The notes under the pieces are model-generated. The model was not told the DNA's origin and ran no database searches. It worked only from the letters and a program-made list of their open reading frames with translations. Positions 8,273 to 54,341 of a stretch of 64,000 bases of DNA are shown piece after piece (position 1 is the first letter of the stretch; the number at the start of each line of letters is the position of its first letter). This stretch comes from Dehalococcoidia bacterium (GTDB lineage Bacteria; Chloroflexota; Dehalococcoidia; Lucifugimonadales; UBA3495), in NCBI GenBank assembly GCA_963422635.1, contig OY730415.1, forward strand, positions 1,139,343 to 1,203,342, given 5' to 3'. The translations under genes were made by a program, and so were the position numbers.

Positions 8273-9412
8273 ATGGCTCACCGTAGCGGACAGTATATCC
8301 AACAACCCGCCGACTACCGGGCTTTTATTCCTAACCCTTTGCCGCCGGAGCCGTCCCTGAATCTGGACGCGGAAATGCTGCGGCTGCTTTCCGTTGCCGA
8401 TCAATCCTTGGGCCGGCTGGACGGCATAGCGGATACGCTGCCCAACCCTGACCTGTTTGTACGTATGTATGTACGCAAAGAGGCAGTGTTGAGTTCTCAA
8501 ATTGAAGGGACTCAAGCCTCTCTGACCGATATTCTGGAATACGAAGCCAACGTAGGCCATCGCCAGTTACCAAACGACGTGTTGGAAACCTTCAACTAGG
8601 TCAAAGCCTTGAACACCGGGTTAGAGCGGCTTGATGAGTTGCCGCTGTGCAATCGGTTGCTTCGAGAAATCCACGGCATCCTGATGCAAGGCGTCCGAGG
8701 TCAAGAAAGGTCGCCGGGGGAGTTTCGCCCATCGCAGAACTGGATCGGCAAACCCGGTAGCGCGCTCAACACTGCAACCTACATCCCGCCTCCCCCGGAT
8801 GAAATGACCTTGGCAATGAGCGATCTGGAGTTTTACCTGAACTCGGACTCACCCACGCCCGTTTTAATAAAATGCGGGCTGGCCCACGGGCAGTTCGAGA
8901 TGATTCACCCCTTCCTCGACGGCAATGGCCGGTTGGGACGGCTATTGATTACTTTCCTTTTATGCCAGCGGAAGGCGCTGACCCGTTCCCTGCTTTACCT
9001 CAGCGCCTACTTCAAACAAAATCAGGACGAATACTATGACCGGCTCTATGGAATCAGTAGCGGTGGGGATTGGGAAGGCTGGCTAAAGTTCTTTCTGAAA
9101 GGCGTCGGCCAAATCTCCCAAGAGGCCACGGAAACCGCCCGCAGGATAATCGCAATTCGGGAAGAACACCGTCAACTTGTCAACCGGAGGGTCGGAGGGA
9201 GAAACGCCCTAACCCTGCTTGATGCGCTCTACCAAAAGCCGGTGGTCACTGTGGCCGACTTAGCTAGTATGCTCAATGTTTCTTACGTTACCGCTAATAA
9301 CCTGGCGCATAGCTTTGAGAATATCGGCATTTTGGAAGAACTCACCCAACGCCCCCGAAACAAGGTTTACCGGTATAAACCTTTCCTGGACATTCTAAAC
9401 CGAAACTTGTAA
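8273..9412 (+). pseudogene. Fic/DOC-family (AMPylase-type) gene interrupted by one in-frame TAG (8597-8599)
   Basis: ORFs 8273-8599 and 8609-9412 are in the same frame. The N-part carries the inhibitory motif SSQIEG, matching (S/T)xxxE(G/N). The C-part carries the Fic active site HPFLDGNGRLGR and a C-terminal wHTH-like tail. The stop sits in ...DVLETFN*VKALNTG, where I recall homologs reading E-V-x-N-Y-x-x-A-L. Confidence 0.75.
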
Positions 9413-17416: not shown

Positions 17417-18102
17417 TCATCCGTCCGGTATAGGCCGCTCGCCCAATAAGACCAAGAGCGATAACACTCCCAATCTCCCAATGATGATACCGCCCCCCAG
17501 ACTTATTTCGGCAACAATTGCCGCAGACCCGAATATATAGGTAAAGCCGAATGGCCAAACCAGCCCGGTTACCAACCCGGTGGTTAAACTGCCGGAAGCG
17601 CTTTTTGACTTCTGAGTCCGGTACACCGCCGACCGGCGCTGCCGGGCGCCTTCGGCTCGGGCAGTACGCAAAGTGATGTCACGAAATTTGCGCTCCGGTA
17701 TTCGGGTTGCCGGGGGCTTACGCCATGGCGCCAGCAATTCACGGTAACGCTTCCTGAATCGCCATCGGTCTGATTCCCCTTCGAACTGTTGCAGAACCGG
17801 CAAAGAACCTGCAAGTTAGACTCGTCGTTTTTTTCTTTGTCGGTTTTTCCTGGGCGGTCGAGCGGATGTATATGGTCGATGGTGAGGTTGTTTCGGTTCA
17901 GGTAAACCCCGCAATACATACCGAGATTGCATTGCCCCCGACTGATACGCCACATTTGTTCTTTAGGAAAGGGTTTACGGAGCGCCGGCCTCCCCGCCGA
18001 CTTATCTCTCTTGAGCCCCAGCAAGATGCCCAAGTACCAGTCGGCGACAGTCAGCCTAATACCAATAATTACGGTAATTACGCCGACTAGTCCAGGGTTC
18101 AC
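17417..18102 (-). pseudogene. HNH-nuclease domain flanked by TM helices, apparently frameshifted
   Basis: ORF 17584-18102 has an N-terminal TM, then CGVYL...IDHIHPL...NLQVLCRFCNSSKG (HNH). Just after KG the sensible continuation (SDRWRFRKRYRELL..., then a C-terminal double TM) is in the +1 frame, which is ORF 17417-17803. The switch point is at the C-run 17776-17779. Confidence 0.55.
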
Positions 18103-39336: not shown

Positions 39337-39520
39337 ATTGCAACCTCTTTGCTTTGCGTTGATTTGCGCTCGGTCAATCCCGCGGTCGGGGGTTATGCTG
39401 GAGATTGTAACACCAAAACCGGGCGTTGCCATAACTGCCGGGCGTTGCTATCATCGGGAGAGCCGGTAAACTTGACGCCCCGGCGATTGGGCGATTGAAG
39501 GACGGCGGAGGATGGGTTAG

Positions 39521-40216
39521 ATGGTTCAGCAAGAGGCGCGGGATTTCGTAAAGTATTCCTTCTACCAGGTGGCTCCGGAGTGGCGGCGGTTGTCTGCGGC
39601 GGAACGGGCGCGAAGCAAGGAGGAGTTTGCGGCTACCCTGGCGGAGTTTTCCGATCGGGTGGCGCTGTCTAGCTATAGCTTGGCGGCGACCCGGGGGGAC
39701 GTGGACTTTATGCTTTGGAAAATCAGCCCCACCCTGGAGGCCATTGATGAACTGATGGCGCAACTGAACCGGACCGAGCTGGCCGCTTACTTGCGGATGC
39801 CCCATTCTTATCTGGCGATGACCCGTCGTTCCCCCTATGTGGACCAGCATCGGCATGAGGGGCAGGAGGGGGCGGCTTCTACGATGCGTATTATCGGACG
39901 CAAGTACCTGTTCATCTATCCCTTCGTCAAGACTCACGACTGGTATCAATGCTCCCAGGAGGAGCGGCAGCGGCTGATGAGCGAGCATTTTACCATCGGG
40001 CACCGCTATCCGGAGGTGAAAATCAGCACGGCCTATTCCTTTGGTCTGGACGATCAGGAGTTTGTGCTGGGCTTTGAGACGGATAATCCGGGGATGTTTC
40101 TGGATTTGGTGATGGCGCTGCGGGAATCGGAGGCTCGCCCGTACACGCTGCGGGATACGCCGATATTTACGTGCTTGAGCAAGCCGGTTAAGGAGTGTTT
40201 GGACGGGTTGGGATGA
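39521..40216 (+). CDS. hemQ: Chlorite-dismutase-family coproheme decarboxylase
   Basis: 231 aa. YSFYQV..., FIYPFVKTHDWY and EHFTIGHRYPEVKISTAYSFGLDDQEF are characteristic of HemQ/ChdC. GGAGG RBS. Confidence 0.85.
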   Translation: MVQQEARDFVKYSFYQVAPEWRRLSAAERARSKEEFAATLAEFSDRVALSSYSLAATRGDVDFMLWKISPTLEAIDELMAQLNRTELAAYLRMPHSYLAMTRRSPYVDQHRHEGQEGAASTMRIIGRKYLFIYPFVKTHDWYQCSQEERQRLMSEHFTIGHRYPEVKISTAYSFGLDDQEFVLGFETDNPGMFLDLVMALRESEARPYTLRDTPIFTCLSKPVKECLDGLG

Positions 40217-40261
40217 TGGGGGGAGTTACAATGATTTCTATACTCCAGCAGGAGATGGGAT

Positions 40262-41314
40262 ATGGCTACCAGAATTGCTTTGTTCAATCACAAAGGCGGT
40301 GTCAGTAAAACCACCACCACTTTCCATTTGGGATGGATGCTGGCGGAAAAAGGCCATAGGGTAATAATGGTTGACGCTGACCCTCAGTGCAACTTGACTG
40401 GTTTGGTACTCAATTATAGGGGGCCGGCTGCTCTTGAAAACTTCTATGAACAAGAGAAAGGTCGCAACTTTAGGGACGGCTTGGCCCCGGCATTTGAATC
40501 CAGACCTGAAGTTCTGAAAGCGGTTGACTGTTGCCAGGTCTCTGGTCGAGAAGGGCTCTTTCTGTTGCCGGGCCACATTAAGTTATCTGAATATGAGGTT
40601 ACTCTGGGGATTGCTCAAGAGCTTTCCGGTTCTATCCAAACGCTTCAGAATCTGCCGGGTTCGATAGCTCGCCTGTTAGAGTTGACGGCTGAACGTCATT
40701 CAGCAGACTATGTGCTGATCGACTTGAACCCTAGCCTCAGCTCGCTCAATCAAAATCTGGTGATGACCAGTCACTTCTTCATCGTTCCTACGACACCGGA
40801 TTACTTCTCCGCTATGGCGGTCCAGTCATTGGCTGGTGTATTGCCGGATTGGCTCAAATGGGCGAAGCGGGCTTCGGAACTGCCGGTGTTGAATTCTGCC
40901 GTCTATCCATTTCCCAACATTACGCCGAAGTTACTAGGAACTATCATACAAAACTATCGGCTTAGGGACAGTCGTCCGGCCAGCGCGTTCCAAAGCCGGA
41001 TCGACGACATAGACCGTAACGTTTCGGAAGAGTTGTTTCCGAAGCTGAAAAAATCTGGTATGACTTTGCCCCGATCGGCTTATGAGAAGTATGGTCTCAA
41101 AGGGATTTGTTTGGCTACAATCTCCGATTTTAATTCGCTCATCGCCAAGTCTCAAGAGCACCAGACCCCGGTGTATGCCCTAACTGCCGAGCAGATAGGA
41201 CAGAGTGGTAATGTCCTGGAAAATACTGAGGTATCACGGAACAACTTCAAAGAAGTCTTTTCCGACTTGGCGGACAAAGTAATATCCCTTGTGAACTATG
41301 CAACCAGCCCTTGA
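40262..41314 (+). CDS. ParA/MinD-superfamily ATPase (orphan, no ParB)
   Basis: Deviant Walker A NHKGGVSKTTT, A' box MVDADPQCN and Walker B YVLIDLNPS. 350 aa, AGGAG RBS. Composition looks lower-GC than the flanks. Confidence 0.85.
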   Translation: MATRIALFNHKGGVSKTTTTFHLGWMLAEKGHRVIMVDADPQCNLTGLVLNYRGPAALENFYEQEKGRNFRDGLAPAFESRPEVLKAVDCCQVSGREGLFLLPGHIKLSEYEVTLGIAQELSGSIQTLQNLPGSIARLLELTAERHSADYVLIDLNPSLSSLNQNLVMTSHFFIVPTTPDYFSAMAVQSLAGVLPDWLKWAKRASELPVLNSAVYPFPNITPKLLGTIIQNYRLRDSRPASAFQSRIDDIDRNVSEELFPKLKKSGMTLPRSAYEKYGLKGICLATISDFNSLIAKSQEHQTPVYALTAEQIGQSGNVLENTEVSRNNFKEVFSDLADKVISLVNYATSP

Positions 41315-41948
41315 TTTGTTTCGAGAGAACATGGGGCGGGCAAGGGACCTGATTGCCATTTCCCATGTCATACAGGTTCAAACTACCCAAGCGCTAGACC
41401 TCTCGGATGTCTTGCGGGCTGCGCTGGTTATGTCGGTGAGCGCGCTTGACCATTTCATACATGAGGCGGTCAGAGCCGGTATGCTGGAATCCTACCGGGC
41501 TGAACGCCCCAGAACGCCGGGCTTTTTGAGTTTTCAAGTAACGATAGGAGCCGTTCTTCAAGGACTTTCCGATCCGGATTCACCAAATTGGGTAGAAAAC
41601 CAAATTAGAGATCGACACGGATACCGGAGTTTTCAAACTCCTGACCAAATCGCAGATGCAATCCGGCTAATCTCCGAGGCGCCGCTGTGGAGCGAGGTGG
41701 CGCTACTCTTAGGTATGGATCGCCGAGAAGTTACCGAAACCTTGACTCTTATTGTTCAGCGCCGCAATAAAATTGCGCATGAAGCTGATGTAATGCCGGA
41801 CTATGCTGGTCAGATAGTTTATTCGGATTCGCGTTCGCCTATTGACGAAGACCTAGTGAAAGGCGCCGTTAACTTTATTGAGCGAATATCGGAGACTATA
41901 TATACCATCGTATCGACTATACCACCGTTGCCCTCCAGGAATTATTAA
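41298..41948 (+). CDS. HEPN-like protein with an R-x4-H motif (predicted RNase)
   Basis: 216 aa; overlaps the ParA gene by 17 nt. It carries QRRNKIAHEAD (R-x4-H) and an N-terminal LRAALVMSVSALDHFIHE helix. The fold assignment is by motif only. Confidence 0.6.
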   Translation: MQPALDLFRENMGRARDLIAISHVIQVQTTQALDLSDVLRAALVMSVSALDHFIHEAVRAGMLESYRAERPRTPGFLSFQVTIGAVLQGLSDPDSPNWVENQIRDRHGYRSFQTPDQIADAIRLISEAPLWSEVALLLGMDRREVTETLTLIVQRRNKIAHEADVMPDYAGQIVYSDSRSPIDEDLVKGAVNFIERISETIYTIVSTIPPLPSRNY

Positions 41949-41960
41949 CAACCAAGAAAA

Positions 41961-41992
41961 GGGGCGAACCGTTCACGGTTCGCCCCTTTTCT
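41961..41992. terminator. Bidirectional intrinsic terminator
   Basis: GAAAA-GGGGCGAACCG-TTCA-CGGTTCGCCCC-TTTTCTT, between the convergent HEPN-like gene and aconitase. Confidence 0.8.
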
Positions 41993-42070
41993 TGCGCGGA
42001 TTTTTTGACTCGAACGGAAGCCGGGCTTGCCGGCTCCGTTTGACGTTCTTCCCCGCCCTTGCTTGCCCTT

Positions 42071-44341
42071 TTACTGGTGGAATAGGTTAAGGGCGGAACC
42101 GAGGCGGAACCATTCTATTTGCGATTCGCCGTAGGAGTGGTTTAGTTGGAGGGTTTCGGAGCTGCCGTCGGCGTGGCGGATGATGCACTCTACCGGCTGG
42201 CCGGGGGCCAAGTTCTGCAACCCTACCAGGCTGATGCGGTCGTCCTCTCGAATGCGGTCGTAGTCGTCCGGGTTGGGGAAGGTTAGAGCCAGCAGTCCCT
42301 GCTTTTTCAAGTTGCTTTCGTGGATGCGGGCAAAGCTGCGCACGATTACCGCCGCGCCGCCCAGTAGACGGGGCGACAGGGCGGCGTGTTCCCGGCTGCT
42401 GCCTTCGCCGTAGTTGAAGTCGCCGATGGCTACCCATTTAATTCCCTGGGCTTTATAGTCCCGGGCGATGCGGGAAAAGGCGACGCCTTCTTCGCCGGTT
42501 ACGACGTTTTTGCCCTTGCCGGCGACGTCGTCATAGGCGTTGATGGCGCCCATAAACATATTGTCGCTGAACTTGTCCAGATGCCCTCGGAAGCGCAGCC
42601 AGACCCCGGCGGGGGAGATGGAGTCGGTGGTGGTCTTGCCTTTGGTCTTGACCAGCACGGGCAGGTCCAGGAAGTCGTTGCCGTCCCAGGCCGGCCAGGG
42701 TTCCAGCAACTGGATGCGCTCGCTGTCCGGCGCTACGGTCAGTTCGATGTCGCTGCCGTCTTCCGGCGGGTTCTCGTAGGAGGAACTGCCCCGGTCGAAG
42801 TTTTGGGGCGGCACGTCCGGGGCTGGCTGGGGCGGCGCCAGGCGGAAGGGCTGGCCGTCGGAGCCGGTGAGGGTGTCGGTGATTGGGTTGAAGGAGAGGC
42901 GGCCGGCGAGGGCCAGGGCGGTAACGATTTCGGGGCTGCCGATGATGTTCATGGTGGAGGCTTCGCCGTCGTTGCGGGCGGGGAAGTTGCGGTTGTAGGA
43001 GGTTACGATGGTGTTGGGTCGGCCTACGGGGTCGCCTTGGCGGCGCCACTGGCCGATGCAGGGGCCGCAGGCGTTGGCGAGTACGGTGGCTTGAATGTCT
43101 TTAAGGGACTGCATCTGTCCGTCCCGCTCGATGGTGGCGCGCACCTGCTCGGAGCCGGGGGTTACCATAAAGGGGACGGCGGCGGTCAGGCCGTGGGCCT
43201 TGGCTTGTTCGGCTACGTCGGCGGAACGGCTCATATCTTCGTAAGAGGAGTTGGTGCAGCTGCCAATCAGGGCCGAGGCGATTTCGTCCACCAAGCCGGG
43301 GTCCTGTTCTAGCTCGGCGGCCATTTGGGAGATGGGGCGGGCCCGGTCCGGAGAATGGGGGCCGACCAGATGCGGTTCTAGTTCGGACAGGTTGATTTCC
43401 ACCACCTGGTCGTAGTGCCGCTCCGGGTTGGCGAGGCATTCCGGGTCGGCGGACAGCAGATGACGGTATTGTTCGGCCAGTTCCGCCAGTTGGCCGCGTT
43501 CGGTGGCGGCCAGGTAGCGGGCCATGGTTTCGTCATAGGGGAAGGTGGAGGAGGTGGCGCCTAGCTCGGCGCCCATGTTACAGATGGTGCCTTTGCCGGT
43601 GGCGCTGATGCTCGCGGTTCCGGGGCCGAAGTATTCGATGATGGCGTTGGTAGCGCCGGATACGGTCAGGAGCCCGGCCAGGCGCAGGATGATGTCCTTG
43701 GGGGCGGTCCAGCCGCTCAGTTGGCCGGTCAGCCGCACGCCGATGAAGCGGGGATAGAGAACTTCCCAGGGCAGCCCGGCCATCACTTCCACCGCGTCGG
43801 CGCCGCCGACGCCCACGGAGATGGAGCCGAGGCCGCCGCCGTTGGGGGTGTGGGAGTCGGTGCCCAACATCAGCTGGGCCGGAAAGGCGTAGTTCTCCAG
43901 GGCTACCTGGTGGATGATGCCGGCGCCCGGCCCCCAGAAGCCGACGCCGTACTTGGCCGCCGCCGTCCGCAGGAAGTCGTAAACTTCATTGTTCTCGCCC
44001 AGCGATTCTTGCAGGTCTTGGGAACCTTCCACCCGGGCTTGGATCAGGTGGTCGCAGTGGACTGAAGTTGGCACGGCGGTGGTGGCGCGCCGGGTTTGCA
44101 TAAACTGGAGCATGGCGGTTTGCCCCAAAACGTCCTGGAGGATTACTCGGTCGGGCCGCAGTTGGATATAGGTTTCCCCGCGCACTAAATCGGTGTTCGT
44201 CGGGTCGTCCAAGTGAGACAGCAGGATTTTATCGGCCAGGACCAAGGGGCGGTTCAGGTTCCGGCGCACGGTGTTCAAGTTCCGGTCCAACTTTTCGTAG
44301 ATGCCGGAAACCAACTCTCTTGTCGGTTCAATCGTTGCCAT
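42071..44341 (-). CDS. acn: Aconitate hydratase
   Basis: 756 aa with IIHQVALEN, GTDSHT, CTNSS, CGPCIGQW and SYNRNFPARN. Confidence 0.95.
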   Translation of the reverse strand: MATIEPTRELVSGIYEKLDRNLNTVRRNLNRPLVLADKILLSHLDDPTNTDLVRGETYIQLRPDRVILQDVLGQTAMLQFMQTRRATTAVPTSVHCDHLIQARVEGSQDLQESLGENNEVYDFLRTAAAKYGVGFWGPGAGIIHQVALENYAFPAQLMLGTDSHTPNGGGLGSISVGVGGADAVEVMAGLPWEVLYPRFIGVRLTGQLSGWTAPKDIILRLAGLLTVSGATNAIIEYFGPGTASISATGKGTICNMGAELGATSSTFPYDETMARYLAATERGQLAELAEQYRHLLSADPECLANPERHYDQVVEINLSELEPHLVGPHSPDRARPISQMAAELEQDPGLVDEIASALIGSCTNSSYEDMSRSADVAEQAKAHGLTAAVPFMVTPGSEQVRATIERDGQMQSLKDIQATVLANACGPCIGQWRRQGDPVGRPNTIVTSYNRNFPARNDGEASTMNIIGSPEIVTALALAGRLSFNPITDTLTGSDGQPFRLAPPQPAPDVPPQNFDRGSSSYENPPEDGSDIELTVAPDSERIQLLEPWPAWDGNDFLDLPVLVKTKGKTTTDSISPAGVWLRFRGHLDKFSDNMFMGAINAYDDVAGKGKNVVTGEEGVAFSRIARDYKAQGIKWVAIGDFNYGEGSSREHAALSPRLLGGAAVIVRSFARIHESNLKKQGLLALTFPNPDDYDRIREDDRISLVGLQNLAPGQPVECIIRHADGSSETLQLNHSYGESQIEWFRLGSALNLFHQ

Positions 44342-45241: not shown

Positions 45242-46381
45242 ATGAATACTGGCGAGGATTTGGAACGGGTTAAGTTTTGGGTGGCGCTTAGTCGGGTTCG
45301 CAACTTGGGGGCGGCCCGCTTTAGAAAGCTGGAAGCATTTTTCGGCGATCTGGGAAATGCGTGGGGCGCCGGGGTGGGGGATTTGCGCGCCGCCGGTCTG
45401 GATGCCCGCGCCGCCGCCGCGGTGGTGGAGGCGCGCCGGGGAACTTCTCCCGATGCTGAGTTGGCCCGGCTGGAACGGGCCGGCGTCCGCGCTCTTACTT
45501 GGCACGACCCGGAATATCCGCCCCGGCTCAAGCAGATTGAGGGGCTGCCCCCGGTGCTTTACGTTAAGGGTAGCTTGGTTCCTGAAGACGAGCGGGCGGT
45601 GGCGGTGGTAGGTACTCGCAGTCCCACCGGCTATGGACGGGAGGCGGCGTCGGTCTTGGCTGGCGATTTGGCTCGCAGTGGCATTACTATCGTTAGCGGG
45701 CTGGCCCTGGGCGTCGACGGCATCGCCCACCGAGCGGCCCTGGCGCAGGGCGGGCGCACCGTCGCCGTGGTAGCCAGCGGTTTGGATATTGTTTATCCTA
45801 AAGACCATATCGGGTTGTCGCGCCGGATTGAGGAGCAGGGGGCAGTGGTTAGCGAGTATTCCCTGGGGGCCCGCCCCGACTCCCGCAATTTTCCCCGGCG
45901 CAACCGCTTGATAAGCGGGATGAGCTTGGGTACGCTGGTAGTTGAGGCGGGCGAGCGCAGCGGCGCCGGCTGGACGGTGCAGCATGCGTTGGAGCAGAAC
46001 CGGGAAGTATTCTGCGTACCGGGCAGCATTTTTTCTCCAGCCAGCCGCTTGACTAACCGGCTGCTCCAAGAAGGAGCCAAGCTGGCTTCTAGCCATACCG
46101 ATATTTTGGAGGAACTGAACCTGAGCGTGGTAGCGCAACAGATTGAAATGCGGCTGACGGAGGGCTTGCCGCCCAGTCCGGCTGCCGACAGCGAGGCAGA
46201 GTTGCTCCGCTGTCTTGACTATGAACCGATGCACATTGACGATATTCGAAGAGAGGCCCGCCGGCCCGCCGCCTTGGTAAGCGGCTTGTTAACTATGCTG
46301 GAGCTTAAGGGTTTGGTAAAGCAGGTGGGCGGGATGCACTATGTTCGGATAGGGGAGGCGACCTCAACCTATGGCAGGTAA
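45242..46381 (+). CDS. dprA: DNA-processing protein A
   Basis: AVVGTRSPTGYG...SGLALGVDGIAHRAAL...VAVVASGLDIVYP. Confidence 0.93.
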   Translation: MNTGEDLERVKFWVALSRVRNLGAARFRKLEAFFGDLGNAWGAGVGDLRAAGLDARAAAAVVEARRGTSPDAELARLERAGVRALTWHDPEYPPRLKQIEGLPPVLYVKGSLVPEDERAVAVVGTRSPTGYGREAASVLAGDLARSGITIVSGLALGVDGIAHRAALAQGGRTVAVVASGLDIVYPKDHIGLSRRIEEQGAVVSEYSLGARPDSRNFPRRNRLISGMSLGTLVVEAGERSGAGWTVQHALEQNREVFCVPGSIFSPASRLTNRLLQEGAKLASSHTDILEELNLSVVAQQIEMRLTEGLPPSPAADSEAELLRCLDYEPMHIDDIRREARRPAALVSGLLTMLELKGLVKQVGGMHYVRIGEATSTYGR

Positions 46382-49070
46382 GGGAACAACCACGGCAGCG
46401 GCCCAGGCGTTAGCCGGGGACGCCGGGGCGGACGGCAAGGAGGGGCCGGATAACCGGACGGCCCGCCCGGTCAGGACGAAGGCGACGGGCAAGGCGACCG
46501 CGAAGGCGACGGGCAAGGCGACCGCGAAGGCGACGGGCAAGGCGGCTACGAAGGCGACGGGCAAGGCGACCGCGAAGGCGACGGGCAAGGCGGCTACGAA
46601 GGCGACGGGCAAGGCGGCTACGAAGGCGACGGGCAAGGCGGCCACTAAGGCGACGGGCAAGGCGACCACTAAGGCGACGGGCAAGGCGACCGCGAAGGCG
46701 GCGGGCAAGGCGACCGCGAAGGCGGCGGGCAAGCGCTTGGTAATCGTGGAGTCTCCGGCCAAAGCCCGTACCGTAGGCCAGATTCTGGGCAATCGGTATG
46801 TGGTTACCGCTTCCCAAGGCCACGTCCGGGACTTGCCCAAGGGCAAGATGGGGGTTGACTTGGAGCGCGACTTTGAGCCGTCCTATGTGACTATGCGGGA
46901 CAAGATGTCCTTGGTTAAGGAGATAAAAAGGGCGGGGGATGAGGCGGCGGATATCTACTTGGCGACGGACCCGGACCGGGAGGGCGAGGCGATATCCTGG
47001 CACTTGCAGACGGCGGCCGGTTGGGATAAGCAGACGGAGCCGCCCAAGCGGGTGGTTTTTCATGAAATCACTAAAGACGCGGTGGAAGAGGCTTTTCAGC
47101 ATCCCCGGGAAATTGATATGCGGCTGGTCAATGCCCAGCAGGCTCGCCGAATTTTGGATCGGCTGGTGGGCTACCAGATTAGCCCGCTGCTGGGCAAGCG
47201 GGTGCAGCGGGGCCTATCCGCTGGGCGGGTGCAGTCGGTAGCCCTGCGGCTGGTTACGGACCGGGAGCGGGAAATTCGGGCTTTTACGCCGGTGGAGTCC
47301 TGGACGCTGGATGCTCAACTGCATCGGGAAACCGACCCGACCGACCGGCTGGAACTGTTTTCCGCTACCCTTCACTCGGTCAAGGGCAGCCGCAACCGGT
47401 TGAACATCCCGGTCGAGGAGGAGGCCCGCCGGTATGAGGCGGAGTTGCAGGACGCCGCCTATGCGGTGGCTGACGTGCGGAAACGGGAGGTGCGGCAGCG
47501 GCCGGCCGCTCCGTTCACTACCAGCACGTTGCAGCAGGAGGCGGGCCGCAAGTTGCGCTTTACGGCCCAGCGAACCATGGCGGTGGCGCAGCAGCTATAT
47601 GAGGGGCTATCCGTGGGCAGCGAAGGCTCGGTGGGACTGATTACCTATATGCGCACCGACTCGGTCCAAGTGGCCCAGACCGCGGTGCAGGAGGCTCGGG
47701 AATATATCGGCGCCAAGTATGGTCAGGAGTATCTGCCGGACCAGCCGCGCGTCCATCGCACTCGAGCCAAAGCGGCGCAGGAAGCCCATGAAGCGATTCG
47801 GCCCACTGCGATAAGCCGGGATCCGGAGGCGCTGAAGGCGCACTTGACGGCCGACCAGCGCCGGCTATACCAGCTAATCTGGGCGCGGATGCTGGCGAGC
47901 CAGATGGCGGATGCTCGCTCCGACGCCACCACGGTAGATATTGACGCCATTTGCAAACAAGGCGACGTCGACGCGGCGTCCGACGCAACTCCCGCAACTC
48001 CCAGGGTCTATAACTTTCGGGCTACGGGCTCGGTACTGAAGTTTCCCGGCTTTCGCATGCTGTATCTGGAAAGTCGGGATGAGGGCGATGCGGAGGAGAA
48101 TCGCAAGTCCTTGCCAGAACTGGCTCCGGGGCAACGGCTGAACTGCCAGCAGTTGGCGGCGGCGCAGCATTTCACCCAGCCGCCGCCCCGATTCACCGAA
48201 GCTACGCTGGTTAAGGCGATGGAGGAGAAGGGGATTGGGCGTCCCAGCACCTATGCTCCTACCATCGGCGTGCTGCTGGCTCGCAACTATGTGGCCAAGG
48301 AGCAGACTAGCTTGCATCCTAGCGAACTGGGCTTCACCGTATCGGACCGGCTGACTGAGTTTTTTGCCGATTTGATGAACCCGGACTTTACTTCCCGGAT
48401 GGAAGAAAAGCTGGACGAGGTATCCCAGGGAGAACGGGAGTGGGTTCCGATGCTGCGGGAGTTTTATGTTCCCTTCGCCAAAGACCTGGAAACGGCTCAA
48501 GCTAATATGCCCAATGATAAACCGGCGGATGAGGCGACCGACGAAATCTGCGAAAACTGCGGTAGTCCGATGGTTATTAAGGCCGGGCGCTTTGGCCGTT
48601 TCGTCGCTTGCACTGGCTACCCCAAGTGCCGAACCACCCATCCGGTTAGGGTCGAGAGCGATGGGGAGGGCGCAGAGGGGAGGCTTTCCGCTGATCGGGA
48701 AACGGATGAGGTTTGCGACCAGTGCGGTCGGCCGATGGTCATCAAGACCGGGCGTTATGGGGAGTTTATTGCTTGTAGCGACTATCCCAAGTGCAAGAAC
48801 ACTCGTCCGATGAAAATCGGGGTGGCCTGTCCCCGGTGCGGGGGCGATTTGGTGGAACGCGGGAGCCGGCGCGGCGTCTTTTACGGCTGCTCCCAATATC
48901 CTGACTGCAAGTTCACGATCAACCGGCGGCCGCTGCCCGACCCCTGCCCGGAGTGTGACGGCCTGATGGCGCAGGACAGTCGGGTTGGCCCGGAGGGTGT
49001 GGCTTGCACCGTCTGCGCTTGGAAAAGCGCGGCTGCGGAAAAGCAGGAATTGGCGACAGTTGGGGGCTGA
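46371..49070 (+). CDS. topA: DNA topoisomerase I with an N-terminal (K-A-T/A-G)n repeat extension
   Basis: Toprim LVIVESPAKARTVGQILG begins at residue ~123. The core domains are followed by four C-terminal CxxC...CxxC zinc ribbons. An alternative internal TTG start lies at about 46737. Confidence 0.93.
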   Translation: MAGKGTTTAAAQALAGDAGADGKEGPDNRTARPVRTKATGKATAKATGKATAKATGKAATKATGKATAKATGKAATKATGKAATKATGKAATKATGKATTKATGKATAKAAGKATAKAAGKRLVIVESPAKARTVGQILGNRYVVTASQGHVRDLPKGKMGVDLERDFEPSYVTMRDKMSLVKEIKRAGDEAADIYLATDPDREGEAISWHLQTAAGWDKQTEPPKRVVFHEITKDAVEEAFQHPREIDMRLVNAQQARRILDRLVGYQISPLLGKRVQRGLSAGRVQSVALRLVTDREREIRAFTPVESWTLDAQLHRETDPTDRLELFSATLHSVKGSRNRLNIPVEEEARRYEAELQDAAYAVADVRKREVRQRPAAPFTTSTLQQEAGRKLRFTAQRTMAVAQQLYEGLSVGSEGSVGLITYMRTDSVQVAQTAVQEAREYIGAKYGQEYLPDQPRVHRTRAKAAQEAHEAIRPTAISRDPEALKAHLTADQRRLYQLIWARMLASQMADARSDATTVDIDAICKQGDVDAASDATPATPRVYNFRATGSVLKFPGFRMLYLESRDEGDAEENRKSLPELAPGQRLNCQQLAAAQHFTQPPPRFTEATLVKAMEEKGIGRPSTYAPTIGVLLARNYVAKEQTSLHPSELGFTVSDRLTEFFADLMNPDFTSRMEEKLDEVSQGEREWVPMLREFYVPFAKDLETAQANMPNDKPADEATDEICENCGSPMVIKAGRFGRFVACTGYPKCRTTHPVRVESDGEGAEGRLSADRETDEVCDQCGRPMVIKTGRYGEFIACSDYPKCKNTRPMKIGVACPRCGGDLVERGSRRGVFYGCSQYPDCKFTINRRPLPDPCPECDGLMAQDSRVGPEGVACTVCAWKSAAAEKQELATVGG
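46479..46733 (+). repeat. 12/24-nt coding tandem repeat (~21 x AAGGCGACGGGC-like units)
   Basis: Encodes KATGKATAKATGKAATKATG... in the topA frame. The third codon positions are G/C, consistent with coding. Confidence 0.9.
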
Positions 49071-52708: not shown

Positions 52709-53761
52709 ATGGCTGATCAAACCCAAGCTCCCTTAACTTTCGCTGATCTGTTCTGTGGCATCGGCGGCTTTCACTTGGCCGCCGACGCTCTAGGTATGAC
52801 CTGCCGTTTCGCCTGCGACATAGATAGCGAAGCCAGGCGAGCTTACAGCGCTAATTTCGGAGTTGAACCTGCTGGCGACATCACTGCTATTTCCCCGGAA
52901 GACATCCCCAATCATGACATCCTCTTTGCCGGCTTTCCTTGCCAGCCCTTTAGCATAATCGGGGTAATGCGAGGATTTGACGACACTAGAGGGGCTCTGT
53001 TTTTCAATTTAGCCAAGATTATTGAGGCTAAGCGACCCCAAGCCTTTTTGCTGGAAAATGTCCGCCAACTCTCAACGCACCACCAGGGCAAAACCTTAAA
53101 GAAAATTATCAGCGCGCTGACGGATCTGGGCTATCGCGTCGACTGGAAACTGCTGAACGCCCTGAACTTTGGATTGCCGCAAAAGCGTGAGCGTACTCTT
53201 ATCGTTGGTTTTCAGGACCATTCAGCGCCTTTTAATTGGCCGGAACCGATCGGTCAACCGGCGCCATTAGCGGACGTTCTTGAGCAGGATGTTCCCTGGC
53301 GTTATTTCGCCAGTAACAACATACGCCTTAAGCGTCTGGAGAAACACCAAAGTGAGCTTGAACTGTCGATTTGGCACGAGAACAAAGGAGGGAACGTAGC
53401 CAGTCATCCTTTTTCTTGCGCCTTGCGCGCCGGGGCGTCATACAACTATCTGCTGGTAAATGGAGAAAGAAGATTGACGCCGCGGGAAATGCTGCGGTTG
53501 CAAGGATTTCCCGAATGGTTTTCCTTGACCGGCTCGTACCAACAAATCAGAAAACAAACCGGGAATGCAGTCCCCGTACCGGTAGTTCGGGCGGTTTTGG
53601 AGCAGATGGTTTATGGGTTATCAAAGGCCGAGATTGCGCGGCGGATGGAACAGCCCTACTCCGTACCCGCTGGGACAGATACCGGATTCGGTTGTTCGGT
53701 CAATCGCCAGCAGTATCGTATACTTGAGCGCAGTGGGGAGGATCGATTTATCCGGAGATGA
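52709..53761 (+). CDS. dcm: DNA (cytosine-5)-methyltransferase
   Basis: Motif I FCGIGGF, motif IV FPCQPFS, motif VI ENV and motif X GNAVPVP. Confidence 0.95.
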   Translation: MADQTQAPLTFADLFCGIGGFHLAADALGMTCRFACDIDSEARRAYSANFGVEPAGDITAISPEDIPNHDILFAGFPCQPFSIIGVMRGFDDTRGALFFNLAKIIEAKRPQAFLLENVRQLSTHHQGKTLKKIISALTDLGYRVDWKLLNALNFGLPQKRERTLIVGFQDHSAPFNWPEPIGQPAPLADVLEQDVPWRYFASNNIRLKRLEKHQSELELSIWHENKGGNVASHPFSCALRAGASYNYLLVNGERRLTPREMLRLQGFPEWFSLTGSYQQIRKQTGNAVPVPVVRAVLEQMVYGLSKAEIARRMEQPYSVPAGTDTGFGCSVNRQQYRILERSGEDRFIRR

Positions 53762-54341
53762 TTGGGGTGATATTTTTGCGGCGGCGGTTAACGGGAACCA
53801 CCTTCAGAGTCCTTTGGGAATAGCTGATATTGCTCTAGGAACAACCGCTTGGTCAGCAAAAACTGTAAAATCAAAATATGCTGACGCTCTCCGCGTACGC
53901 CTAATCTCGGGCCGCAATAGTCCGATTTTCTCTTCAGGAAACCCGGACTTTTTTGCTGACATTCAGGAGACTGGTCGGCAGGTTTTGCAAATCTGGAATG
54001 CCAGGGTTGAGGAAGCTATTCAGCAGTATCCCCACTTACGGAATATAGTTTTGCTTCGGGATATGGAAAGGTTTCGGTTCAAGTTATTTGAGCAGCAGAC
54101 GGTGCAATTCGACCCAGCTGATTACACGTGGCGGCTTAATGGGCGCAAAAATTTTGAAGGCCTAAGTGTTCAAGGCAACGTGCATTCTTTCACCTGGCAA
54201 CCGCATGGATCCCAATTTACAATAATCAGGCGAGTAGGCGGGTCGGCACGTTCGTTTAGGGTCGATAAACCGAGTGGACTTGACCCGGATCAAGTGCTTG
54301 CTAATCTTGGATACAGCGATAGTTGGGTAACCTTCTGGTGA
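53724..54341 (+). CDS. Putative type II restriction endonuclease (partner of the m5C methyltransferase)
   Basis: ORF 53613-54341 overlaps the end of dcm. The likely start is TTG 53724 or GTG 53733. GIADIALGTTAWSAKTVKS could be a PD...(D/E/S)xK-like core. Composition looks low-GC. The assignment rests mainly on position. Confidence 0.5.
   Translation: MSAVGRIDLSGDDWGDIFAAAVNGNHLQSPLGIADIALGTTAWSAKTVKSKYADALRVRLISGRNSPIFSSGNPDFFADIQETGRQVLQIWNARVEEAIQQYPHLRNIVLLRDMERFRFKLFEQQTVQFDPADYTWRLNGRKNFEGLSVQGNVHSFTWQPHGSQFTIIRRVGGSARSFRVDKPSGLDPDQVLANLGYSDSWVTFW

What the first reader, a model, noticed from the sequence alone, without database searches (positions are those of the whole stretch)
40217..41992. 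Low-GC gene pair between hemQ and aconitase: orphan ParA-type ATPase coupled to an R-x4-H (HEPN-like) protein
ORF1 (350 aa) has the deviant Walker A of ParA/MinD ATPases (NHKGGVSKTTT), the A' box (MVDADPQCN) and Walker B (YVLIDLNPS). There is no ParB or centromere partner, and both flanks are chromosomal housekeeping genes. ORF2 (216 aa) starts 17 nt inside ORF1, which indicates translational coupling. It looks all-helical and carries QRRNKIAHEAD, an R-x4-H motif of the kind that forms HEPN RNase active sites. The ~1.75-kb block looks AT-richer than both flanks and ends in its own A-tract/hairpin/T-tract terminator, consistent with horizontal acquisition. Comparative-genomic surveys of HEPN domains (Anantharaman, Aravind and co-workers, 2013) predicted HEPN families linked to ParA/Soj-like NTPases. 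To my knowledge no such pair has been functionally characterised or named as a defence or toxin-antitoxin system. Working hypothesis: an NTPase-regulated HEPN RNase, either abortive-infection or TA-like.
Basis: partly seen in the sequence, partly recalled or inferred. Interest (0 to 1): 0.72.

Follow-up and report, generated by a model that had tools for sequence, protein, structure and literature searches.

The report
ParA-like ATPase paired with HEPN RNase
A small, mobile two-gene cassette, a ParA-type ATPase translationally coupled to a predicted HEPN RNase, sits at a strain-variable site where close relatives carry candidate phage-defence genes or nothing; it is widespread, also rides on phages and plasmids, and no experimental study of it turned up.

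Summary
ORF1 (40262-41314, 350 aa) is a ParA/Soj-fold ATPase with intact catalytic motifs. ORF2 (41298-41948, 216 aa) overlaps it by 17 nt and passes the Pfam threshold for RiboL-PSP-HEPN, with an invariant R-x4-H motif.

The two genes form an obligate pair:
- A ParA gene lies upstream of the HEPN gene in 79 of 79 informative genomic loci across many phyla.
- In the reverse direction, 65 of 67 ParA loci have the HEPN gene downstream.
- The same 17-nt overlap occurs in 61 of 79 loci.
- There is no third conserved gene, no ParB and no centromere-like repeats.

Distant copies (about 30% identity) keep the catalytic block. They sit in Pseudomonas Pf-type filamentous phages and on conjugative Burkholderia plasmids.

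In close relatives of this organism, the same site 3' of the aconitase gene holds one of five things: nothing, PADLOC candidates PDC-M02 or PDC-M24, an AriA/GajA-like ATPase, or this pair.

My best reading is a toxin-antitoxin-like conflict or defence module in which the ATPase controls the RNase. The 2013 survey predicted ParA/Soj-HEPN pairs for a different HEPN family (MAE_18760). I found no experimental work on such a pair. I rate it a new variant of a known kind, of moderately high interest.

The parts
40250..40254 (+). Shine-Dalgarno-like AGGAG, 7 nt upstream of the ORF1 ATG. The intergenic gap to the hemQ stop (40216) is only 45 nt.
   Evidence: Read directly from the sequence. No sigma-70-like promoter was found on the + strand between 39455 and 40262.
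40262..41314 (+). ORF1, a 350-aa ParA/Soj-fold (SIMIBI) ATPase. It belongs to a 'long' clade whose nearest solved relative is DIP2308 (PDB 3PG5).
   Evidence: Pfam AAA_31 at 91.3 bits and CbiA at 51.8 bits. AF2 model with pLDDT 82.1 and pTM 0.87. Foldseek top hits are 3PG5, Soj and pNOB8 ParA at probability 1.00. phmmer against PDB gives 3pg5_A at 1e-16. PHROGs phrog_164 at 164 bits.
40286..40315 (+). Deviant Walker A (residues 9-18, NHKGGVSKTT), with signature Lys11 and P-loop Lys16/Thr17.
   Evidence: Invariant in 23 of 23 aligned homologs: K11 G12 G13 V14 S15 K16 T17.
40709..40732 (+). Walker B (residues 150-157, YVLIDLNP; Asp154). The A' box D38/D40 lies at 40373-40381.
   Evidence: D38, D40 and D154 are invariant in alignment A2.
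41298..41314 (+). The 17-nt overlap between the ORF1 end and the ORF2 start. ORF2 has no Shine-Dalgarno sequence, which implies translational coupling.
   Evidence: Exactly 17 nt in 61 of 79 loci across several phyla; 8 nt in 4 loci and 13 nt in 2. Sequence read.
41298..41948 (+). ORF2, a 216-aa all-helical RiboL-PSP-type HEPN protein and the predicted RNase effector.
   Evidence: Pfam PF18735 at 44.8 bits against a cut-off of 28.4. All 20 family members match it, and the only recurrent secondary hits are other HEPN families. AF2 model with pLDDT 82.6 and pTM 0.80, all-helical. PHROGs phrog_13503 at 116.6 bits.
41760..41789 (+). Codons for RRNKIAHEAD (residues 155-164), containing the R-x4-H motif R156...H161 of the predicted HEPN active site.
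   Evidence: R155, R156 and H161 are invariant and N157 nearly so in alignment A1. The block RRN[KSA]I[AV]HE[AGS]D is kept in relatives of about 30% identity from phages and plasmids.
41953..41994 (.). Perfect 20-nt-arm hairpin flanked by an A-tract and a T-tract. It looks like a bidirectional terminator between ORF2 and the convergent aconitase gene (42071-44341, minus strand). It is probably resident to the site.
   Evidence: Empty sites in L254, L257 and L251 also have a GC-rich hairpin after the aconitase gene. Rfam matches here are only below-threshold hairpin hits.

Best explanation
This is a self-contained, horizontally mobile two-gene conflict cassette. ORF2 is the effector, a HEPN-family RNase whose R-x4-H active site would normally form on dimerisation. 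ORF1 is its obligate regulator, a catalytically competent ParA/Soj-type ATPase that dimerises on ATP. ORF1 is translated first and ORF2 is coupled to it through the 17-nt overlap, so the RNase is never made without its partner. The most likely working cycle has three steps. ParA, probably as the ATP-bound dimer and possibly on nucleoid DNA, binds the HEPN protein and keeps it inactive. A trigger then changes the ATPase's nucleotide or DNA-bound state; candidates are a phage or other invading element, or loss of the cassette. The RNase is released and cleaves cellular and/or invader RNA, stopping growth in an abortive-infection or toxin-antitoxin-like manner. SHOWN HERE: the gene anatomy; the family assignments; conservation of catalytic residues in both proteins; the strict two-way gene partnership and conserved overlap; purifying selection; carriage on phages and plasmids; and location at a strain-variable site shared with candidate defence systems. 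INFERRED, NOT SHOWN: RNase activity, toxicity, physical interaction, the direction of regulation (inhibition versus activation), the trigger, and any protection against phage.
For: Family assignment and catalytic residues:
- ORF2 passes the Pfam gathering threshold for HEPN_RiboL-PSP, as do all 20 aligned homologs. Their only recurrent secondary hits are other HEPN families.
- R155, R156 and H161 are invariant and are kept in relatives of about 30% identity.
- ORF1 has a ParA/Soj fold. K11, K16, T17, D38, D40 and D154 are invariant.

Partnership:
- ParA lies upstream on the same strand in 79 of 79 informative loci.
- In the reverse direction, 65 of 67 metagenome loci with this ParA clade have the HEPN gene downstream.
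- The overlap is exactly 17 nt in 61 of 79 loci.
- No third conserved gene exists.
- The two genes co-diverge, with Mantel r 0.785 and 0 of 999 permutations reaching it.

Selection and mobility:
- dN/dS is 0.07-0.13.
- Copies occur in a Pf1-like prophage, in inovirus WX-TY and on conjugative Burkholderia plasmids. A further 27 IMG/VR contigs carry the pair.

Hot-spot context:
- The site 3' of the aconitase gene is empty in L251 and L254-L259.
- It holds PDC-M02A/B in L250 and L260, PDC-M24A/B in L247, and an AriA/NsnB/GajA-like ATPase in L248 and L249.
- It holds this pair in the window, L001, L004, L262, L263 and L264.

Divergence:
- Pair alleles at the shared site are near saturation at synonymous sites (pS 0.69-0.77). 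The flanks are at pS 0.30-0.53.

Distribution:
- Only 441 loci were found among 185,579 species genomes, scattered over many phyla.
Against: - There are no experimental data.
- Foldseek found no significant match of the ORF2 model to any solved HEPN structure. The best HEPN hits had E above 1 and TM up to 0.59. A profile search of PDB sequences found nothing.
- PADLOC has no model matching ORF2.
- Outside this clade, the immediate neighbours of the pair are mostly housekeeping genes, with only sporadic TA, R-M or IS genes. Classical defence-island enrichment is therefore not general.
- In L044 the ParA gene is split by an IS1595/PIN insertion while the HEPN ORF stays intact. That fits poorly with a constitutively toxic HEPN, unless its expression is lost.
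- ParA is more conserved than HEPN. This is the opposite of the usual pattern in which the toxin is more conserved than the antitoxin.
- The higher pS of the pair could partly reflect its weaker codon bias and not greater allele age.
Confidence: 0.5

Rival explanations
1. It is purely a selfish addiction (post-segregational killing) toxin-antitoxin module. HEPN is a stable toxin and ParA a labile or enzymatic antitoxin. The cassette persists because its loss kills the cell, and it has no role in phage defence.
For: The layout resembles HepT/MntA, with the enzyme gene upstream of the HEPN gene. This is the analogy drawn in PMC3710099. The pair is carried on conjugative plasmids and in the accessory region of Pf prophages, where ParDE and PfiTA toxin-antitoxin modules also sit. 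It is a free-standing cassette among housekeeping genes.
Against: At the aconitase site the pair is replaced by candidate defence systems and is often absent, so loss is tolerated at population level. ParA (350 aa) is more conserved than the presumed toxin, which is unlike labile antitoxins. In L044 the ParA gene is disrupted while the HEPN ORF is intact.
Confidence: 0.2
2. The components are the same but the logic is reversed. ParA is the sensor and activator. On ATP-dependent binding to foreign DNA or to a phage protein, it recruits or assembles HEPN into an active RNase. HEPN alone is inert.
For: An intact HEPN gene persists beside a disrupted ParA gene in L044. The ATPase and its clade-specific insert are very strongly conserved; the segment at residues 101-133 is almost invariant yet is modelled with low confidence. 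That suggests a ligand- or partner-binding role. NTPase-activated HEPN nucleases exist (PrrC and RloC; from my own knowledge).
Against: The upstream position of the gene and the strict translational coupling are more typical of neutralisers. No data bear directly on this question.
Confidence: 0.15
3. It is a partition or positioning system. ORF2 is a HEPN-fold adaptor (a ParB/McdB analogue) that links a cargo or DNA site to the ParA ATPase.
For: The parA-then-partner gene order with coupling is typical of par operons. Copies occur on plasmids and filamentous phages, and GenBank AY324828 annotates Orf317 as Soj-like. PHROGs names the ATPase family 'ParA-like partition protein'.
Against: The window has no iterated repeats or centromere-like sites, and the intergenic gaps are only 45 nt and about 120 nt. 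Most copies are isolated 1.7-kb cassettes in chromosomes. A catalytic R-x4-H block is invariant over the whole family. NCBIfam's partition-ParA equivalogs are far below their cut-offs, for example NF041546 at 63.8 bits against 180.
Confidence: 0.05
4. It is a housekeeping RNA-processing factor with an ATPase chaperone.
For: The flanking genes are housekeeping genes. The 45-nt gap after hemQ, with no promoter-like site, suggests possible co-transcription with hemQ.
Against: The pair is present in only 441 loci among 185,579 species genomes, and the distribution is patchy. Strains within one metagenome sample differ in presence or absence. Carriage on mobile elements also argues against it.
Confidence: 0.03

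Closest known systems
Predicted ParA/Soj-HEPN dyad of the MAE_18760 HEPN family (Anantharaman, Makarova, Burroughs, Koonin, Aravind 2013, PMC3710099)
   Same: A two-gene unit in which a ParA/Soj-like SIMIBI ATPase gene accompanies a gene for a HEPN protein with R-x4-6-H. That paper postulated the ATPase as antitoxin and the HEPN protein as RNase toxin.
   Different: The HEPN family differs. All 20 members tested here match PF18735 (RiboL-PSP-HEPN). Only 4 of 20 touch PF18737 ('MAE_28990/MAE_18760-like'), at E of 0.0018 or worse. For RiboL-PSP the paper lists an L-PSP fusion and an operon with ParB, not ParA. That dyad is itself only a prediction. I could not obtain the MAE_18760 sequence to compare directly.
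HepT/MntA (HEPN/MNT) type VII toxin-antitoxin systems
   Same: A small HEPN RNase with R-x4-H is paired with an adjacent nucleotide-using enzyme that controls it. Weak Foldseek hits of the ORF2 model are mostly HepT structures.
   Different: The partner here is a ParA-fold ATPase and not a MNT nucleotidyltransferase, so AMPylation chemistry is not expected. ORF2 is larger (216 aa against about 130 aa) and belongs to the Abi2/Swt1-related RiboL-PSP family.
PrrC / RloC anticodon nucleases (from my own knowledge; also discussed in PMC3710099)
   Same: A P-loop NTPase module regulates a HEPN RNase that acts as a suicidal anti-phage effector.
   Different: In PrrC and RloC the NTPase is an ABC/Rad50-type domain fused to the HEPN domain, and the protein is embedded in R-M loci. 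Here the NTPase is SIMIBI/ParA-type and is a separate polypeptide in a stand-alone cassette.
ParABS / ParA-adaptor positioning systems (Soj-Spo0J, pNOB8 ParA, McdAB)
   Same: ORF1 shares the fold, the deviant Walker A and the ATP-sandwich-dimer residues. The partner gene lies downstream.
   Different: There is no ParB, no centromere repeats, and no plasmid or cargo context in most loci. The partner carries a conserved nuclease motif.
DIP2308 of Corynebacterium diphtheriae (PDB 3PG5)
   Same: It is the nearest solved structure and sequence to ORF1. It is similar in length (361 aa) and shares the insert with the LPGH motif.
   Different: It is an uncharacterised structural-genomics target. Identity to ORF1 is about 20% by Foldseek. 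I did not examine its gene neighbourhood.

Membership tests
RiboL-PSP-HEPN (Pfam PF18735), HEPN superfamily | Score above the Pfam gathering threshold over most of the model | tested here: met
   44.8 bits against a cut-off of 28.4, covering model positions 23-189 of 191. All 20 homologs match, best E 1.6e-17.
RiboL-PSP-HEPN (Pfam PF18735), HEPN superfamily | Conserved R-x4-6-H motif with a polar residue after the Arg | tested here: met
   R156-N157-K-I-A-H161. R155, R156 and H161 are invariant and N157 is at least 90% conserved. The motif is kept in relatives of about 30% identity on mobile elements.
RiboL-PSP-HEPN (Pfam PF18735), HEPN superfamily | All-alpha HEPN fold that superposes on solved HEPN structures | tested here: inconclusive
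   The AF2 model is all-helical with pLDDT 82.6. Foldseek gives no hit at E of 0.001 or better. HepT, Csm6 and AF_0298 appear only at E 1-3 with TM 0.4-0.59 relative to the target.
RiboL-PSP-HEPN (Pfam PF18735), HEPN superfamily | Endoribonuclease activity | not testable with these tools
   This needs biochemistry.
RiboL-PSP-HEPN (Pfam PF18735), HEPN superfamily | Fusion to an endoRNase L-PSP domain (the origin of the family name) | tested here: not met
   The best 150 of 1,568 representative relatives are almost all stand-alone proteins of about 200 aa. This fusion names the family but is not required for membership.
ParA/MinD (SIMIBI) deviant-Walker-A ATPases | xKGGxxK[ST] with signature lysine, A' box aspartates and Walker B aspartate | tested here: met
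   K11, G12, G13, K16, T17, D38, D40 and D154 are invariant in 23 sequences.
ParA/MinD (SIMIBI) deviant-Walker-A ATPases | ParA/Soj fold | tested here: met
   Foldseek probability 1.00 to 3PG5, Soj (2BEK), pNOB8 ParA and McdA. 286 hits at E of 0.001 or better.
Type I plasmid/chromosome partition system (ParABS) | Adjacent ParB-type centromere-binding protein | tested here: not met
   The only conserved neighbour is the HEPN gene. No ParB appears among the flanking genes.
Type I plasmid/chromosome partition system (ParABS) | Centromere-like repeats next to the operon | tested here: not met
   No multi-copy repeat families occur in 39900-42150. The only notable inverted repeat is the terminator hairpin.
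Type I plasmid/chromosome partition system (ParABS) | ParA reaches NCBIfam partition-ATPase equivalog cut-offs | tested here: not met
   NF041546 at 63.8 bits against 180. TIGR03453 at 57.8 bits against 348.
HepT/MntA type VII toxin-antitoxin | MNT (minimal nucleotidyltransferase) antitoxin partner | tested here: not met
   The partner is a ParA-fold ATPase.
HepT/MntA type VII toxin-antitoxin | Toxicity of HEPN neutralised by the partner | not testable with these tools
   This needs expression experiments.
MAE_18760-HEPN + ParA/Soj dyad (PMC3710099) | ParA/Soj-like ATPase gene adjacent to the HEPN gene | tested here: met
   79 of 79 loci.
MAE_18760-HEPN + ParA/Soj dyad (PMC3710099) | HEPN protein belongs to the MAE_18760/MAE_28990 family (PF18737) | tested here: not met
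   ORF2 does not hit PF18737 at E of 1 or better. Only 4 of 20 homologs hit it weakly, best E 0.0018, while 20 of 20 hit PF18735.
Catalogued anti-phage defence systems (PADLOC-DB v2.0.0) | Component proteins match the models of a system | tested here: not met
   ORF2 has no matches. ORF1 matches PDC-M28B only over the P-loop (residues 2-40, 30.6 bits).

The most novel reading that the evidence does not exclude
The ParA partner works as a nucleoid- or ATP-state sensor. As an ATP dimer bound non-specifically to chromosomal DNA, it sequesters the HEPN RNase on the nucleoid. Phage-induced nucleoid degradation, DNA mimicry or ATP collapse releases the RNase. ParA-type DNA-surface chemistry would then be repurposed as an immune 'guard' of nucleoid integrity, which would be a sensing principle not yet described for a defence system. 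A corollary is that Pf filamentous phages and conjugative plasmids carry the cassette to protect their hosts against competing elements.
Probability: 0.12. Interest if true: 0.85.

Novelty: new variant of a known kind. Interest (0 to 1): 0.64.

Why it matters
HEPN RNases are recurrent effectors of prokaryotic immunity and toxin-antitoxin systems: Cas13, Csm6, RnlA, PrrC, HepT, and AbiD, AbiF and AbiV. How each one is kept silent and then switched on is the interesting part.

In this case the controlling partner is a ParA/Soj-type ATPase. That protein family is otherwise known for positioning DNA and cellular cargo, and I found no experimental work on such a pair.

The module is compact at 1.7 kb and is clearly a unit. 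It spans Chloroflexota, Cyanobacteria, Poribacteria, Acidobacteriota, Planctomycetota, Spirochaetia and Proteobacteria. Relatives are carried by Pseudomonas Pf phages and Burkholderia conjugative plasmids, so tractable hosts exist for experiments.

Its position at a strain-variable site shared with PADLOC candidate systems makes a defence role directly testable. If that role is confirmed, it would add a new regulatory logic to the HEPN effector repertoire. It would also give a function to PHROG 13503 and to the DIP2308-like 'long ParA' clade.

Tried and rejected
- Foldseek of the ORF2 model against PDB and BFVD gave no significant hit. The fold-level HEPN test therefore stays inconclusive.
- An hmmsearch of the HEPN profile against PDB sequences found nothing.
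- PADLOC has no model for ORF2.
- NCBIfam gave only sub-threshold ParA-family hits.
- Rfam on 39400-42300 gave only sub-threshold hits driven by the hairpin.
- The supplementary files of PMC3710099 held no alignments, so I could not compare ORF2 directly with MAE_18760.
- Five literature searches for a characterised ParA-HEPN pair, including the Pf-phage literature, found none (papers read).
- A third conserved gene was rejected. The next-largest clusters are antisense shadow ORFs or lineage-specific synteny in 9 loci or fewer.
- General defence-island enrichment at the +/-1 gene position across 77 and 76 loci was not seen. The neighbours are mostly housekeeping genes.
- The 546-aa ParA-HEPN fusion P0232 looks like an indel across the overlap on a single metagenome contig. 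I gave it no weight.
- ParA relatives at 36-44% identity in viral contigs have no consistent partner, so they are not part of this system.
- I rejected 'low GC means recent acquisition', because the deficit is family-wide.
Full report
1. WHAT IS IN THE SEQUENCE

ORF1 (40262..41314, +, 350 aa) and ORF2 (41298..41948, +, 216 aa) exist as described and overlap by 17 nt. hemQ lies upstream (39521..40216; Pfam Chlor_dismutase, 186 bits). Only 45 nt separate it from ORF1, and an AGGAG sits 7 nt before the ORF1 ATG. ORF2 has no Shine-Dalgarno sequence. The aconitase gene lies downstream on the other strand and converges on the pair (42071..44341). A perfect 20-nt-arm hairpin lies at 41953-41994.

The block is the lowest-GC coding stretch in the window. 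GC is 0.490 for ORF1 and 0.499 for ORF2, against a mean of 0.602 (sd 0.042) over 51 long ORFs. GC3 is 0.54 and 0.48, against a mean of 0.70.

2. WHAT THE TWO PROTEINS ARE

ORF1 matches Pfam AAA_31 (91 bits) and CbiA. Its AlphaFold model (pLDDT 82.1, pTM 0.87) superposes on ParA/Soj-family structures at Foldseek probability 1.00. The closest is the uncharacterised 361-aa protein DIP2308 (PDB 3PG5). Soj, pNOB8 ParA, delta of pSM19035 and McdA follow.

In 23 homologs the signature lysine K11, the P-loop K16/T17, the A' box D38/D40 and the Walker B D154 are all invariant. The protein therefore looks like an active ATPase that dimerises on ATP. It does not reach any NCBIfam partition-ParA cut-off; NF041546 scores 63.8 bits against 180.

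A clade-specific insert (residues ~101-133, LLPGH..SEYEV..QNLPGS) is almost invariant, yet residues 108-123 are modelled with low confidence. It is a candidate partner-binding or ligand-binding segment.

ORF2 passes the Pfam gathering threshold for HEPN_RiboL-PSP (44.8 bits against 28.4). All 20 aligned homologs match that model. Their only recurrent secondary hits are other HEPN families: Swt1 in 10, Apea in 7, and MAE_28990/MAE_18760-like in 4, all weak.

The model is all-helical (pLDDT 82.6, pTM 0.80). R155, R156 and H161 are invariant and N157 is nearly so. Foldseek gave no significant match to solved or viral structures. HepT, Csm6 and AF_0298 appear only among weak hits, and a profile search of PDB sequences found nothing. 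The HEPN call therefore rests on the sequence profile and the motif, not on an independent fold match.

3. THE PAIR IS AN OBLIGATE UNIT

A scan of one genome per species (185,579 species) found 441 loci that encode ORF2 relatives. The best 80 come from Dehalococcoidia and other Chloroflexota, Poribacteria, many filamentous Cyanobacteria, Acidobacteriota, Planctomycetota, Spirochaetia, Binatia and Dormibacterota.
- In 79 of 79 informative loci an ORF1 homolog lies upstream on the same strand.
- In 61 of those 79 the overlap is exactly 17 nt.
- No other gene is conserved.
- In the reverse direction, 65 of 67 metagenome contigs that carry this ParA clade and have enough downstream sequence also carry the HEPN gene.
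- ParA relatives at 36-44% identity in viral contigs have no consistent partner.
- The two proteins co-diverge (Mantel r 0.785, 0 of 999 permutations). HEPN changes about 1.2 times faster than ParA.

The exceptions are informative. In L057 both genes have decayed. In L044 the ParA gene is split by a 2.4-kb insertion carrying an IS1595 transposase and a PIN-domain gene, while the HEPN ORF stays intact.

An exhaustive profile search found 1,568 representative clusters at E of 0.001 or better, and 271 at 1e-30 or better. Nearly all are stand-alone proteins of about 200 aa.

4. MOBILITY

Relatives at about 30% (HEPN) and 41-43% (ParA) identity occur as adjacent pairs in three mobile contexts:
- a Pf1-like prophage of Pseudomonas aeruginosa (AY324828), where the ATPase is annotated 'similar to Soj' and the HEPN ORF is not annotated;
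- the inovirus WX-TY, where the pair sits between the regulatory region and the integrase;
- conjugative plasmids of Burkholderia glumae.

All of them keep the block RRN[KSA]I[AV]HE[AGS]D. A further 27 IMG/VR contigs carry the pair. PHROGs has a family for ORF2, phrog_13503, of unknown function.

The Pf literature places TA and defence cargo such as ParDE, PfiTA and KKP in the same accessory regions. It does not describe this pair.

Across 74 loci the pair always has lower GC than its flanks, by 8.6 points on average, whatever the host GC.

5. THE INSERTION SITE IS A CARGO HOT SPOT

I examined relatives whose aconitase is 86-94% identical to the window's. The site 3' of that gene holds one of the following:
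- nothing, with aconitase and hemQ about 180-250 nt apart (L251, L254-L259);
- a DUF4365 gene plus a 375-aa gene, matching PADLOC candidates PDC-M02A/B at 180 and 343 bits (L250, L260);
- DUF6978 plus DUF1828, matching PDC-M24A/B at 195 and 106 bits (L247, and partly L261);
- an AAA_15/AAA_21 ATPase resembling NsnB, AriA and GajA (L248, L249);
- the ParA-HEPN pair (window, L001, L004, L262, L263, L264).

Six of these variants come from a single metagenome sample, so this is strain-level variation.

Where the pair is shared, the flanking genes are at pS 0.30-0.53. ParA and HEPN are near saturation (pS 0.69-0.77), with dN/dS of 0.07-0.13. The alleles are therefore much older than the flanks, or have been exchanged, while staying under purifying selection. 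One caveat is that weaker codon bias in the pair may inflate its pS.

Empty sites also have a hairpin after the aconitase gene, so the window's terminator is probably resident.

6. INTERPRETATION

The anatomy, the catalytic conservation in both proteins, the strict coupling, the mobile-element carriage and the hot-spot context together support one reading. This is a conflict cassette in which a ParA-type ATPase controls a HEPN RNase effector.

I favour inhibition of the RNase by ParA until a trigger arrives, in the manner of toxin-antitoxin or abortive-infection systems. I give this a confidence of 0.5. The rivals are:
- a pure addiction module (0.2);
- the same components with ParA as activator (0.15);
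- a partition system with a HEPN-fold adaptor (0.05), which is contradicted by the lack of a centromere, the chromosomal stand-alone context and the invariant nuclease motif;
- a housekeeping RNA-processing role (0.03).

Nothing here demonstrates RNase activity, toxicity, interaction or defence.

7. COMPARISON WITH WHAT IS KNOWN

Anantharaman et al. 2013 (PMC3710099) predicted ParA/Soj-HEPN TA dyads, but for the MAE_18760 family. For RiboL-PSP-HEPN they listed an L-PSP fusion and an operon with ParB. By Pfam the present family is RiboL-PSP and not MAE_18760-like.

Functionally the nearest analogues are HepT/MntA, where an enzyme partner controls a HEPN toxin, and PrrC/RloC, where an NTPase regulates a HEPN nuclease. 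The partner class and the architecture differ from both.

PADLOC v2 does not contain the system. Five literature searches found no experimental work on it.

My verdict is a new variant of a known kind: real, widespread and untested.

Noticed in passing
window 52709-54341: A second low-GC cassette (GC 0.52). It holds a C5 cytosine DNA methyltransferase (Pfam DNA_methylase, 279 bits) followed by an overlapping 242-aa ORF with no Pfam match. The second ORF could be the cognate restriction enzyme. The cassette lies between an Xaa-Pro peptidase-like gene and EF-P.
   Followed up: partly
window 8609-9412 and 17584-18102: Two more below-average-GC ORFs with conflict-type domains: a Fic/DOC protein (67.5 bits, GC 0.534) and an HNH endonuclease (35.8 bits, GC 0.545).
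   Followed up: partly
window 46476-46733: The 5' end of the topoisomerase I gene (46371-49070) contains 10.8 copies of a 24-nt tandem repeat at 93% match. It encodes a Lys/Ala/Thr/Gly-rich KATGKATA-type N-terminal extension.
   Followed up: partly
L247, L248, L250, L260, L261 (site 3' of the aconitase gene in relatives): Alternative cargo occupies the same site: PDC-M02A/B (DUF4365 plus a 375-aa protein), PDC-M24A/B (DUF6978 plus DUF1828), and an AriA/NsnB/GajA-like AAA_15/21 ATPase. Small CCDC90-like ORFs are often present too.
   Followed up: partly
L250 11277-12271; L257 9661-11609; L258 10356-11847: A second variable spot lies a few kb away, between the NHL-repeat gene and the 2-phosphosulfolactate phosphatase gene. 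In some relatives it holds an AAA_15/21 ATPase plus a DUF4276 protein. The DUF4276 protein of L250 matches PADLOC HEC-01B at 97 bits. The window has only about 325 nt at that position.
   Followed up: no
L074 versus L070: A contig binned as 'Candidatus Hadarchaeota archaeon' (L074) gives the same coordinates, identities and scores for both genes as a Dehalococcoidales contig (L070). This looks like mis-binning and not an archaeal occurrence.
   Followed up: no
L044 2061-6191: The ParA gene is interrupted near residue 307 by a 2.4-kb insertion. The insertion carries an IS1595-family transposase (164 bits), a PIN-domain protein (32.6 bits) and a 256-aa ORF. The HEPN ORF downstream remains intact.
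   Followed up: yes
P0232 (JGI metagenome contig, 546 aa): A single protein joins the ParA and HEPN parts in one frame across the usual overlap. It lacks about six N-terminal HEPN residues. It is either a real fusion or a sequencing indel.
   Followed up: partly
L086 (GenBank AY324828.1, record positions 426-935): In this Pf1-like prophage record the HEPN ORF next to Orf317 ('similar to Soj') is not annotated. It ends early, lacking the C-terminal helix, close to the att2 end of the record.
   Followed up: partly
ORF1 residues 101-133 (window about 40562-40660): The most conserved stretch of the ATPase (LLPGH..SEYEV..LGIAQELS..QNLPGS) is specific to this clade and to DIP2308. Residues 108-123 are predicted with pLDDT below 50, so this conserved segment may become ordered only on binding something.
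   Followed up: no
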